Shown here piece by piece: positions 29,871 through 32,013 of a stretch of 64,000 nucleotides of DNA. A model generated the notes under the pieces. The model saw nothing but the letters and a program-made list of their open reading frames with translations, had not been told where the DNA came from and made no database searches. Position 1 is the stretch's first letter; each line of letters starts with the position of its first letter. Source of the DNA: the human T2T-CHM13v2.0 reference genome, Homo sapiens; the NCBI RefSeq assembly GCF_009914755.1, contig NC_060946.1; one strand, written 5' to 3'. The position numbers and the translations under genes are program-made.

Positions 29871-30758
29871 ACACACACACATCATTCTTTCTTCATCATG
29901 AGACTCTAGTCCTTTTCATTAAGTTTCCTTTTGTCAAACAGAAAATTATTTCCAATTAATTTTTCTGTTTTGCAATCCAGAATGTAATTGCTATCCTCTG
30001 TTAACTGTGCAAAGAGGAATGAAAGTTGGTTGACTTTCCCATCAGTCTTATAAGTCATTTCTTTTTTTATATGAATCATTCTATAACATCAGAGAATTAC
30101 TTCTTTCCTTTTGTGAGTAGGAAGAGCCACACTGATTATCTGTATATGTTTCACTCACATTAAAGAAGTATACTGATATGTATTATAGCAGAAAAAAAAG
30201 TCAAACACAGTGAGTAATCTTAGGTAGAAATGCTTTGGATGTTACAATTAATAAGCCCTAGCATTAAAATAAATAAATTTTGTTTAAAAAAGAGTAAGAC
30301 AGAATATTCTGTTTGGTTAAAAAAGAGATGCCTCTAATAATACAATGTTATCATTACACCAAAATCAATGAAATATTAGGTTTCATTTAAACTCAGATTT
30401 TTTTCAAAGTGACTTCATTGAGATTTTATTCAATTGCACATTGGAAAAAAGTATAATGATAATGTTACCCAATTTCCTATAACTATATTCAGTTGGCTGA
30501 TTTTCCTAATACCATTATGTGTGTTAAAGTTTTCTATTTGATGCTAAATTGTCTGTTGGTACACACATGAGATTATGCTTGTAACAAATCTAAGCATCAT
30601 AAGAGGAGTAATAATTCTTTTAGCATTTATATTAGGATCTCAAAATTGAGAACTAAGACTTCAGAAGACCAGTCCTTCTGACAATGGTAAAGAAAAGTTA
30701 GAAACACAATTGGCCTCATTTTCTTCTGGATTTGGCAGACCTGTTAGTGTTAATTGTA

Positions 30759-30874
30759 TATATATACATATATATATATAATATATTTATTTATGATTAT
30801 ACTTTAAGTTCTGGGATACATGTGCAGAACATGCAGGCTTGTTACATAGGTATACACATGCCATGGTGGTTTGC
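30759..30874 (-). mobile_element. L1PA 3'-terminal fragment (~75 bp plus TA-degenerate tail)
   Basis: ttatactttaagttctgggatacatgtgcagaacatgcagg.ttgttacataggtatacacatgccatggtggtttgc is the antisense primate L1 3' end. Confidence 0.9.
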
Positions 30875-31246
30875 AATTGGCCCTTTGTATCTGTGGGTTC
30901 TGCATTAGTGGATTCAGCCAACTGTGGGTTTAAACTGTTAAAAAAAAAAAACAAAAAAAAGGATGATTGGGTCCGTACTGAACATGTACAGACTTTTTTT
31001 CTTGTCCCCCATGGTTCCCTAAACAATACAGTATAACTACATAGCATTTATGTCGTATTGGGTATTATAAATAATCTAGAGATAATTTAATATACATGGG
31101 AATATGTACATAGGATGTGCATATTATATGCCAATACTGTGCCATTTTTTATAAGGGATTTGAGCATCCATAGATTTCCTATCTGTAGGTGTGGAGTGTG
31201 TGTGCCCTGAAACCAATTCCTCATGGATACAGAGGGATGACTGTAT
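30874..31246. mobile_element. MER2 (TcMar-Tigger) non-autonomous DNA transposon, near full length
   Basis: TIR caattggccctttgtatc ... ggatacagagggatgactg-ta; internal gtactgaacatgtacagac and ccctaaacaatacagtataac. Confidence 0.8.
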
Positions 31247-31419
31247 ACTTTATGAGCCACTACCTAGGTGTGCTTTTTTTCTGCCCAATGGAGGGCTCTT
31301 TCTGCTTTGATGACCAAAGTTGGAACAAACAAACTTTATCACTAAAGGTATCATTTTGACATTTAAACAAGGCTACATGAAGCTCATTGTGAAGAAAGTT
31401 TAAAAGAATGTTCTACTGG

Positions 31420-32013
31420 GGCCAGGTGTGGTGGCTAACGCCTGTAATCCCAGCACTCTGCGAGGCCAAGGCGGGTGATCACCTGAGGTCAGGAGTTCGA
31501 GACAAGCCTGGCCAACATGGTGAAACCCTGTCTGTACCAAAAATACAAAAAATTAGCCAGGCATTGTGGCGGATGCTTGTAATCCCAACTACTCGGTAGG
31601 CTGAGGCAGGAAAATCACTTGAACCCGGGAGGCGAAGGTTGCAGTGAGCCGAGATCACACCATTGCACTCCAGCATATAATATATATGATTATATATATA
31701 TAATCATAAATATATATATTTATGATTATACTTAAAGTATAATCATAAATAAATATATTATATATATGTATATATATACAATTAACACTAACAGGTCTGC
31801 CAAATCCAGGAGAAAATGAGGCCAATTGTGTTTCTAACTTTTCTTTACCATTGTCAGAAGGACTGGTCTTCTGAAGTCTTAGCTCTCAATTTTGAGATCC
31901 TAATATAAATGCTAAAAGAATTACTCCTCTTATGATGCTTAGATTTGTTACAAGCATAATCTCGTGTGTGTACCAACAGAGCCTTGCTCTGTCACCAAAA
32001 AAAGAAAAAAAAA
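31420..32013 (+). mobile_element. AluS whose 3' end is interrupted by a templated inverted insertion
   Basis: Normal Alu to ..gcactccagc (31674), then ~300 bp of foreign DNA, an inverted Alu terminus, and the A tail. TSD gttctact is retained (31410-31417 / 32014-32021). Confidence 0.9.

What the first reader, a model, noticed from the sequence alone, without database searches (positions are those of the whole stretch)
30552..31980. Young ~250-bp inverted duplication of local DNA written into the 3' end of an Alu
Seen: 31731-31980 is the reverse complement of 30552-30808, differing by 3 substitutions, a 3-nt indel and (TA)n length. Most of the duplicated DNA is not a recognisable repeat. The copy interrupts an AluS exactly after ..gcactccagc, while the Alu keeps its A tail and TSD (gttctact). 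Inference: a replication or repair template switch (FoSTeS/MMBIR or polymerase-theta-like) to DNA ~1 kb away. The arms are far more alike than the host Alu is to its consensus, so the event is much younger than the Alu (possibly hominid-specific or polymorphic), or the arms are kept similar by gene conversion.
Basis: partly seen in the sequence, partly recalled or inferred. Interest (0 to 1): 0.8.

Follow-up and report, generated by a model that had tools for sequence, protein, structure and literature searches.

The report
Inverted local copy inside an Alu
A 251-base stretch of a human HORMAD2 intron was copied backwards into the tail end of a nearby Alu by a DNA-copying accident that jumped between templates several times, which is a clear but ordinary example of a known mutation process.

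Summary
30552-30809 and the reverse complement of 31730-31980 align with 248 matches, 3 transitions and two small indels. They are the only two full copies in the whole T2T genome.

The left arm is the source. It is a composite: unique DNA, a 43-nt patch from the neighbouring RPS3AP51, a (TA)n tail, and the last 14 nt of a dispersed repeat that runs on past the arm.

- The Alu's own last 22 nt are still there, but inverted, between the copy and the A tail. They join the copy through a 5-nt microhomology.
- The 55 nt between the Alu body and the copy are alternating direct and inverted snippets of the arm's AT-rich end. They form hairpins.

Best reading: one serial, microhomology-mediated template-switch event (FoSTeS/MMBIR class). 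It replaced about 27 nt of the Alu with 322 nt copied from the opposite strand within 1.4 kb.

The arms differ by 1.2%, which gives roughly 6-12 Myr (CI 1.2-36). That is far younger than the Alu, which is 10.8% from consensus.

Ape orthologues and pangenome haplotypes could not be checked with these tools. This is a new member of a known kind, of modest interest.

The parts
30552..30809 (+). Left arm: the source of the copy. It is a composite. 30552-30706 has no other genome copy found. 30707-30715 is a 9-mer, CAATTGGCC. 30716-30758 is the RPS3AP51-derived patch. 30757-30795 is a (TA)n / T-rich tail. 30796-30809 is the last 14 nt of a dispersed repeat.
30796..30875 (-). 80-nt terminal fragment of a dispersed repeat, whose tail is the (TA)n to its left. 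By recall it is the 3' end of an older primate L1 in antisense; no tool gave that name. It crosses the arm boundary at 30809/30810, which shows that the left arm is the original.
   Evidence: 866 first-look candidates, 40 scored, at 90-97% identity apart from the window's own copy; in 11 of 11 loci shown the repeat starts at the same TACTTTAAG/A (one locus differs at the last base), is preceded by a T/A-rich tail, and continues past the point where the window copy stops.
30810..31674 (+). Spacer between the arms, 865 nt without the filler or 920 nt with it. It holds the rest of the dispersed-repeat fragment, an old interspersed repeat (30876-31270), unique DNA, the left Alu target-site duplication (31410-31417) and the Alu body (31420-31674). 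It is in the ancestral orientation, because both the dispersed repeat and the Alu are collinear with their flanks.
   Evidence: (3294 candidates; 39 scored matches elsewhere at 70-80% identity)
31420..31674 (+). Host Alu body, ending ...GCACTCCAGC. It is 27 of 249 (10.8%) from a majority consensus of 20 window Alus, with 18 of those differences outside CpG. The S subfamily assignment was not tested.
31675..31729 (.). AT-rich filler: alternating direct and inverted snippets of the arm's last ~35 nt. 31675-85 is direct 30776-86. 31685-94 is direct 30792-801. 31699-712 is inverted 30801-788. 31717-33 is direct 30788-804. Together with the start of the right arm it forms two adjacent hairpins.
   Evidence: exact-match mosaic. 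(TRF period 39, 2.3 copies). (DNA fold -23.1 kcal/mol, z = -6.1, 0 of 200 shuffles as good). (palindromes).
31730..31980 (-). Right arm: the inverted copy of 30552-30809.
   Evidence: 248 matches, 3 mismatches, 7 gap columns
31976..31997 (-). The host Alu's own 3' terminal segment, inverted in place. 31976-31980 (ACAGA) is shared with the end of the right arm, a 5-nt microhomology. The A at 31997 is shared with the A tail.
   Evidence: the reverse complement matches the segment that follows GCACTCCAGC in other window Alus. Best is 21 of 22 (Alu 8226-8477); local alignment scores against all 14 compared range from 8 to 20.
31997..32021 (+). Alu A tail (31997-32013) and right target-site duplication GTTCTACT (32014-32021).
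34263..34305 (+). Stretch of RPS3AP51 that matches the 43-nt patch inside the arm (41 of 43). It shares a pseudogene-specific 7-nt cluster.

Best explanation
A single error-prone copying event of the serial template-switch kind (FoSTeS/MMBIR class) hit the 3' end of an already old Alu.

Read left to right, the new strand did the following:
1. It left its template after ...GCACTCCAGC (31674).
2. It made a few short snap-back copies at the AT-rich end of a segment about 0.9 kb behind. That end is the (TA)n tail and terminus of a truncated dispersed repeat.
3. It copied 251 nt of that segment from the opposite strand (30809 back to 30552).
4. It jumped through a 5-nt microhomology (ACAGA) to the opposite strand of the Alu's own last ~22 nt.
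5. It returned to the proper template at the A tail.

The same path can be read right to left, starting at the A tail.

Net result: about 27 nt of the Alu were replaced by 322 nt, all templated from within 1.4 kb and all in inverted orientation. That created a 251-bp inverted repeat around a ~0.9-kb spacer, plus a small AT-rich palindrome.

Shown: the anatomy, the junctions, the direction of copying (left arm to right arm), and the relative age.
Inferred: that it was one event, that it was replicative rather than break repair, and which way the fork moved.

No function is implied. It is a neutral intronic scar, which also makes a long hairpin in the HORMAD2 pre-mRNA (prediction only).
For: (1) The inserted DNA is templated and local.
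- The arms are 248/251 identical.
- They are the only two full copies in the genome.
- The composite order of unique DNA, RPS3AP51 patch, (TA)n and repeat terminus is mirrored in both arms.

(2) The source is the left arm. The dispersed repeat runs on from 30809 to 30875 in the left copy only (11 of 11 related loci).

(3) The target was a complete Alu. The 8-nt target-site duplication and the A tail are intact.

(4) The Alu's last 22 nt are inverted in place, with a 5-nt microhomology to the arm and 1 nt to the A tail. Inverting a stretch in place next to an inverted insert is what copying from the complementary strand gives.

(5) The filler is a direct-inverted-direct mosaic of the arm's end and folds into hairpins (z = -6.1). 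This is as expected from repeated snap-back at an AT-rich quasi-palindrome.

(6) The switch points lie beside a 17-nt A tract and a (TA)n. Walker et al. 2021 (PMC7954356, passages read) report poly(dA:dT) and AT-rich sequence enriched around the first switch point of short template-switch events in great apes.

(7) The main step has the geometry that Loytynoja and Goldman 2017 call type 3-2-1-4, which creates an inverted repeat (PMC5453318, passages read).

(8) Age.
- 3/251 differences give 6-12 Myr at 1e-9 to 0.5e-9 per site per year (CI 1.2-36; rates recalled).
- 36-54 differences would be expected if the arms were coeval with the Alu (P <= 1.5e-12).
- Both arms carry derived changes. 30725 is T in the left arm, in RPS3AP51 and in 27 of the 29 other RPS3A copies, so the right arm changed there. 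At 30568 the right arm keeps a CpG that the left arm appears to have lost; that direction is inferred.
- So this is an evolved duplication, not an assembly fold-back.
Against: - No ancestral (pre-event) allele was available, so the original 3' end of the Alu, and hence the exact microhomologies and the ~27-nt loss, are inferred from 14 other Alus of the window (14 chosen from 41 blast rows).
- Only one junction has a clear microhomology (5 nt). The Alu-body/filler junction has none that I could see, and the A-tail junction has 1 nt.
- The filler is low-complexity AT. Its 10-17-nt matches are individually weak, and it could have grown later by slippage (TRF sees a 39-nt unit 2.3 times).
- Replication-fork switching cannot be told from break repair using a sister chromatid.
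- Gene conversion between the arms could make the event look younger than it is.
Confidence: 0.65

Rival explanations
1. Several separate events rather than one. For example, first came a simple inverted templated insertion or a small in-place inversion of the Alu end. Later the AT-rich palindrome centre grew by slippage or further short template switches.
For: TRF reads the filler as 2.3 copies of a 39-nt unit at 86% match, which is what later tandem duplication of a palindromic unit would give. AT-rich hairpin-forming DNA is prone to such changes (one search shows the hairpins). The two arms already differ by a (TA)2 and a TAA slippage indel.
Against: The inverted Alu stub is joined directly to the end of the copied arm by a shared ACAGA. 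Those two pieces are therefore hard to separate in time. Nothing in the sequence demands more than one event.
Confidence: 0.15
2. Double-strand break repair by end joining with templated synthesis (polymerase-theta-type snap-back or loop-out), or by capture and ligation of DNA fragments, rather than replication-fork template switching.
For: Short 10-17-nt direct and inverted snippets of nearby sequence at a junction, and microhomologies of 1-5 nt, are what is described for theta-mediated end joining (recalled; no paper read here). A 22-bp fragment released by two nearby breaks could be religated backwards.
Against: A 251-nt copy taken 0.9-1.1 kb away is much longer and more distant than the templated inserts I recall for theta-mediated joining. 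The source segment is still in place, so it was copied, not moved. A break-repair path still needs a second intact template (sister or homologue) for the Alu stub.
Confidence: 0.12
3. The rearrangement arose during the Alu's own retrotransposition, by reverse transcriptase jumping between templates. The arms have since been kept alike by gene conversion.
For: The insert sits directly next to the A tail, inside an element with an intact target-site duplication. Inverted repeats can exchange sequence.
Against: The arms differ at 3 of 251 sites where 36-54 differences are expected for the Alu's age. The arms are only about 250 bp. The inverted part is the 3' terminal piece, not the 5' part as in twin priming. 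A reverse transcriptase would need antisense templates for both the Alu stub and the arm.
Confidence: 0.04
4. An assembly artefact, or two independent insertions of one dispersed repeat family.
For: Fold-back chimeras occur in long-read data.
Against: An artefactual fold-back would be a perfect copy. These arms differ by 3 substitutions and 2 indels, with derived changes on both arms. The arm has only two genome copies. It is a mosaic of four unrelated pieces, one of which continues into the flank on the left only.
Confidence: 0.02

Closest known systems
FoSTeS / MMBIR complex rearrangements (serial, microhomology-mediated template switching)
   Same: Templated insertion from nearby DNA in inverted orientation. 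Several successive switches. Microhomology at a junction (5 nt). No long homology at the breakpoints. A small deletion at the return point.
   Different: Far smaller than the kilobase-to-megabase disease-associated cases (322 nt inserted, all templates within 1.4 kb). Fixed or old in the germline rather than de novo. One junction lacks visible microhomology.
Short template-switch mutations, four-point model (Loytynoja and Goldman 2017, PMC5453318; Walker et al. 2021, PMC7954356)
   Same: The main step has the 3-2-1-4 geometry, which creates an inverted repeat. The in-place inversion of the Alu's last 22 nt resembles the type that only inverts a fragment. The switch points lie next to poly(dA:dT) and AT-rich DNA.
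   Different: Those studies model one switch-and-return. Walker et al. require a template within 100 nt, and Loytynoja and Goldman explicitly leave out long-range and multi-round switching. Here the copy is 251 nt, taken 0.9-1.1 kb away, with several rounds.
Palindromic AT-rich repeats (PATRR11, 17, 22)
   Same: An AT-rich, hairpin-forming palindrome (31685-31759) on chromosome 22, created by inverted duplication.
   Different: PATRRs are about 190-600 bp with nearly no spacer (abstract of PMC1851657). Here the tight palindrome stem is about 23 bp, and the long arms are about 0.9 kb apart. No instability is shown. This locus lies in the HORMAD2 gene, whereas PATRR22 is described at 22q11 in those abstracts.
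Inverted low-copy repeat pairs that can mediate inversion by ectopic recombination (catalogue of PMC11794170)
   Same: The pair meets that catalogue's criteria: at least 200 bp, at least 80% identity, intrachromosomal, inverted.
   Different: Very short arms and spacer. The held supplement has only summary tables and no row for this locus, so whether the pair is listed, and whether it is present in GRCh37/38, is unknown to me.
L1 twin-priming inversions
   Same: An inversion inside a retroelement flanked by target-site duplications. Twin priming is said to account for about 85% of human inversions under 2 kb (abstract of bioRxiv 10.1101/2021.12.20.472354).
   Different: Twin priming inverts the 5' part of the inserted element and adds no foreign DNA (recalled). 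Here the 3'-most 22 nt are inverted, 251 nt of unrelated local DNA are included, and the event is much younger than the element.

Membership tests
FoSTeS/MMBIR-type template-switch rearrangement | Inserted sequence is a copy of sequence present elsewhere (templated), with the source retained | tested here: met
   248/251 identity to 30552-30809, which is still in place. Only two copies in the genome.
FoSTeS/MMBIR-type template-switch rearrangement | Microhomology (about 2-6 nt) at the breakpoint junctions, and no long homology | tested here: inconclusive
   5 nt (ACAGA) at the arm/Alu-stub junction and 1 nt at the stub/A-tail junction. None seen at the Alu-body/filler junction. The pre-event Alu end is inferred from other Alus. 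There is no extended homology between the Alu end and the arm.
FoSTeS/MMBIR-type template-switch rearrangement | More than one switch (complexity), with templates close together in space | tested here: met
   At least four junctions: body/filler, filler/arm turn, arm/stub and stub/tail. There are also direct-inverted alternations within the filler. All templates lie within 1.4 kb.
FoSTeS/MMBIR-type template-switch rearrangement | Arose in one replication or repair episode | not testable with these tools
   Needs the ancestral allele or intermediate haplotypes from apes or the human pangenome.
Four-point short template-switch mutation | A single switch-and-return with a reverse-complement fragment copied from a template close by (within 100 nt in Walker et al. 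2021) | tested here: not met
   The reverse-complement copy is met. But the template is 0.9-1.1 kb away and there are several rounds. The model's authors exclude such cases.
L1 twin priming | The inverted segment is the 5' part of the same retroelement, formed at insertion | tested here: not met
   The inverted Alu piece is the 3'-most 22 nt. Foreign DNA is included. The arms are far younger than the Alu.
PATRR | Near-perfect AT-rich palindrome of some hundreds of bp with little or no spacer | tested here: not met
   The tight palindrome has a ~23-bp stem and a 10-bp neighbour hairpin. The 251-bp arms are only partly AT-rich and are separated by 920 nt.
Dispersed repeat family inserted twice | Many copies genome-wide, with the family's own termini at both ends of each arm | tested here: not met
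   2 full copies in 3.1 Gb. The arm ends inside a dispersed repeat on one side and in unique DNA on the other.

The most novel reading that the evidence does not exclude
The (TA)n tail of the truncated dispersed repeat at 30757-30795 may be a small recurrent hotspot for local templated copying. It already sits next to a 43-nt patch taken from RPS3AP51, 3.5 kb away. Later it served as the turning point of the inverted duplication.

The product is 251-bp arms plus a hairpin-forming AT-rich centre. It may still be unstable in people, through inversion of the ~0.9-kb spacer, loss of the insert, or growth of the palindrome.

It also puts a ~250-bp near-perfect double-stranded RNA stem into the intron of a meiosis gene. 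One strand of that stem carries 43 nt antisense to RPS3A-like sequence, so it could be edited or processed into small RNAs in the germline.
Probability: 0.12. Interest if true: 0.5.

Novelty: new member of a known kind. Interest (0 to 1): 0.3.

Why it matters
The locus preserves every junction of a multi-step template-switch event in readable form: microhomology, snap-back filler, an in-place inverted stub and a retained source. It falls in the size gap between the short events of tens of bases catalogued in ape genomes and the kilobase-to-megabase rearrangements studied in patients.

It could therefore serve as a worked example, and as a search pattern for finding more mid-sized events: an interrupted Alu with an intact tail and target duplication, plus an inverted local copy.

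In itself it is an intronic, probably neutral scar. It changes no exon, and no function is indicated.

Tried and rejected
- **Simple inversion with staggered breaks** (inverted duplications at both ends). Rejected: the spacer is collinear with its flanks. The dispersed repeat runs across 30809/30810, and the Alu body faces its own tail and target duplication.
- **Inversion followed by re-inversion through the arms.** The predicted order does not match, because the Alu stub would be direct.
- **Twin priming.** Wrong end of the element is inverted.
- **Source in a second Alu.** The neighbouring + strand Alu at 29602-29850 has a different 3' end (D3).
- **A local source for the dispersed-repeat fragment.** No other copy was found in the window.
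- **Known RNA family.** None found at gathering score in 29000-35500.
- **Locus-level literature.** Searches for HORMAD2 with inversion/structural variant/intron, and for the inversion catalogue paper, found nothing on this site. The Cell version of the inversion catalogue was not found in the library, and the preprint's supplements are closed, so a listing there cannot be excluded.
- **PMC11794170 supplement.** It holds summary tables only, with 0 hits for HORMAD2.
- **Ape orthologues, GRCh38 and pangenome haplotypes.** No tool here holds them.
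Full report
**Observation**

The window is chr22:30566001-30630000 of T2T-CHM13, inside an intron of HORMAD2 (hub annotation; one search confirms the place as G000:C22).

A local alignment of 30530-30840 with the reverse complement of 31660-32010 pairs 30552-30809 with 31980-31730. There are 248 matches and 3 mismatches (30568 T/C, 30652 A/G, 30725 T/C, all transitions). One gap is 3 nt, in a TAATAA run. The other is 4 nt, in the (TA)n.

The match is far beyond chance:
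- The blastn self-hit has E = 1.6e-118.
- It is the only non-Alu pair of at least 92% identity and more than 60 nt among the 17 self-hits of at least 40 nt in the 64-kb window.
- In the whole 3.1-Gb genome, bases 1-209 of the arm give 4 matches. These are the two arms and two 43-45-nt pieces that belong to RPS3A pseudogenes.

**What the arm is made of**

The arm is not one thing.

- **30552-30706:** no other copy was found. Very old repeats below about 80% identity would not be seen.
- **30716-30758:** 41 of 43 identical to 34263-34305 on the same strand, inside the annotated pseudogene RPS3AP51, 3.5 kb downstream.
  - I aligned it with 29 other RPS3A-like loci of the genome (L006-L034, the 29 with loci out of 40 scored matches).
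  - The patch shares with RPS3AP51 a 7-nt cluster, TCAATTG in the pseudogene and TTAATTG in the arm. All 29 others have CTGAGCA or a close variant there, so 0 of 29 carry the cluster.
  - The patch therefore comes from that pseudogene's lineage, not from RPS3A mRNA or another copy.
- **30757-30794:** a (TA)n run.
- **From about 30796:** the sequence belongs to a dispersed repeat (866 first-look candidates; 40 scored, at 90-97% identity apart from the window's own copy).
  - In 11 of 11 loci displayed (L036-L046), the repeat begins at the same TACTTTAAG/A (one locus differs at the last base).
  - In all 11 it is preceded by a T-rich, TTTA-rich or (TA)n tail.
  - In all 11 it continues beyond the point (30875) where the window's copy stops.
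  - By recall this is the 3' end of an older primate L1 in antisense, with its A tail decayed to (TA)n. No tool gave that name.

The arm ends at 30809, 14 nt into this repeat. The repeat itself continues to 30875 only on the left. Hence the left arm is the original and the right arm is the copy.

**The target**

31420-31674 is an Alu body (41 blast rows to other Alus of the window). It is flanked by GTTCTACT at 31410-31417 and 32014-32021, with an A tail at 31997-32013.

Measured against a majority consensus of 20 window Alus (20 chosen from the 41 rows as near full length), it differs at 27 of 249 positions. 18 of these are outside CpG. I did not test the subfamily.

In 14 other window Alus (14 chosen from the 41 rows), GCACTCCAGC or a one-base variant of it is followed by about 27 nt and then the A tail.

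In the host Alu, the reverse complement of 31976-31997 matches that terminal segment. It is 21 of 22 to the Alu at 8226-8477. Local alignment scores are 17-20 against four of the 14 and 8-13 against the rest.

So the Alu's last ~22 nt are present, in place, but inverted, between the copied arm and the A tail.

The last five bases of the arm copy (ACAGA, 31976-31980) are also the first five of the inverted stub. That is a 5-nt microhomology, if the Alu originally ended as its relatives do. The stub/tail junction shares one A.

Between ...CCAGC (31674) and the arm copy (31730) lie 55 AT-rich bases. Exact-match mapping resolves them into pieces of the arm's own last ~35 nt, in alternating orientation:
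- 31675-85 and 31685-94 are direct.
- 31699-712 is inverted.
- 31717-33 is direct.
- The full inverted arm then starts at 31730.

The turn into the arm is at ACTTAAAGT, whose reverse complement differs from it at one base.

As single-stranded DNA, 31670-31790 folds into two adjacent hairpins (-23.1 kcal/mol). Shuffles give -11.2 +/- 1.95, so z = -6.1, and 0 of 200 shuffles fold as well. TRF reads the same stretch as 2.3 copies of a 39-nt unit.

**Mechanism**

Every inserted base (31675-31996, 322 nt) can be derived from sequence within 1.4 kb. The two larger pieces (arm and Alu stub) are both copied from the strand opposite to the one that should have been copied. The source is retained. About 27 nt are lost at the site. 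One junction has a 5-nt microhomology. The filler looks like repeated snap-back.

This is the signature of serial template switching (FoSTeS/MMBIR class).

One consistent path is as follows. A strand growing leftwards stops at the A-tract/Alu boundary. It switches to the other parental strand just ahead and copies the 22-nt Alu end backwards. It then jumps by TCTGT/ACAGA to 30552 and copies 258 nt to the AT-rich terminus. There it turns back on itself two or three times. It finally resumes on the proper template at ...CCAGC.

The mirror-image path is equally possible. The direction, the fork-versus-break origin, and the single-event assumption are all inferences.

The literature I read supports the class, not the locus:
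- The four-point model describes a reverse-complement copy that creates an inverted repeat (type 3-2-1-4). It also describes a type that only inverts a fragment. It explicitly excludes long-range and multi-round switching (PMC5453318, passages).
- In great apes, the first switch point of short events is enriched for poly(dA:dT) and AT-rich DNA, and templates were required within 100 nt (PMC7954356, passages).
- Here the switch points abut a 17-nt A tract and a (TA)n.

**Age**

3 differences in 251 aligned sites (1.2%, CI 0.25-3.5%) give 6 Myr at 1e-9 per site per year and 12 Myr at 0.5e-9. The overall range is 1.2-36 Myr (the rates are recalled).

If the arms were as old as the Alu, 36-54 differences would be expected (P <= 1.5e-12). 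The event is therefore much younger than the Alu unless gene conversion has kept the arms alike.

At 30725 the left arm, RPS3AP51 and 27 of the 29 other RPS3A copies have T, so the right arm changed there. At 30568 the right arm keeps a CpG that the left arm appears to have lost; that direction is inferred. Changes on both arms argue against an assembly fold-back.

**Consequences (predicted only)**

- The HORMAD2 pre-mRNA would fold 30552-30809 against 31730-31980 into a ~250-bp stem. The MFE of 30540-31995 is -680.8 kcal/mol, with no shuffle control at this length.
- No Rfam family matches 29000-35500.
- The pair meets the criteria of a published catalogue of inverted repeats able to mediate ectopic recombination: at least 200 bp and at least 80% identity (PMC11794170, passages). 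Its held supplement has only summary tables.

**What could not be done**

No ape genome, second human assembly or pangenome is within reach of the tools. Lineage specificity, polymorphism, spacer inversion and the ancestral allele therefore remain untested.

Literature searches found nothing on this site. The supplements of the inversion-catalogue preprint are closed and might list it.

**Verdict**

This is a clean mid-sized example of a known mutational process in a neutral intronic setting. It is a new member of a known kind, with interest of about 0.3.

Noticed in passing
window 30707-30882: The 9-mer CAATTGGCC occurs on the + strand only twice in 64 kb, at 30707-15 and 30874-82. The two copies exactly bracket the RPS3AP51 patch, the (TA)n tail and the 80-nt dispersed-repeat fragment. 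This looks like a target-site duplication around a chimeric insertion (repeat 3' end, tail, then 43 nt of a pseudogene 3.5 kb away). The duplication does not start with A's and there is no second A tail. It could be an odd retro-insertion with a DNA or RNA template jump, or an older template-switch patchwork with a 9-nt re-copy. Unresolved.
   Followed up: partly
window 34290-34335 (RPS3AP51): Compared with 29 other RPS3A copies, the pseudogene carries two dense mutation clusters about 25 nt apart (6 changes in 7 nt, and 4 in 8 nt). Both create a similar GTGT(C)AATTGT motif. Such multi-base clusters are the kind attributed to short template switches or small conversions. The first cluster is the one shared with the patch in the arm.
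   Followed up: partly
window 30876-31270: The spacer holds an old interspersed repeat: 3294 first-look candidates genome-wide, with 39 scored matches elsewhere at 70-80% identity. No tool named it.
   Followed up: no
window 36520-36700: A compound (TA)n/(TC)n microsatellite with perfect 30-nt TA palindromes. It gives spurious matches to the (TA)n of the arms.
   Followed up: no
window 34702-34796: A partial Alu-like 3' half directly abuts the 5' end of RPS3AP51.
   Followed up: no
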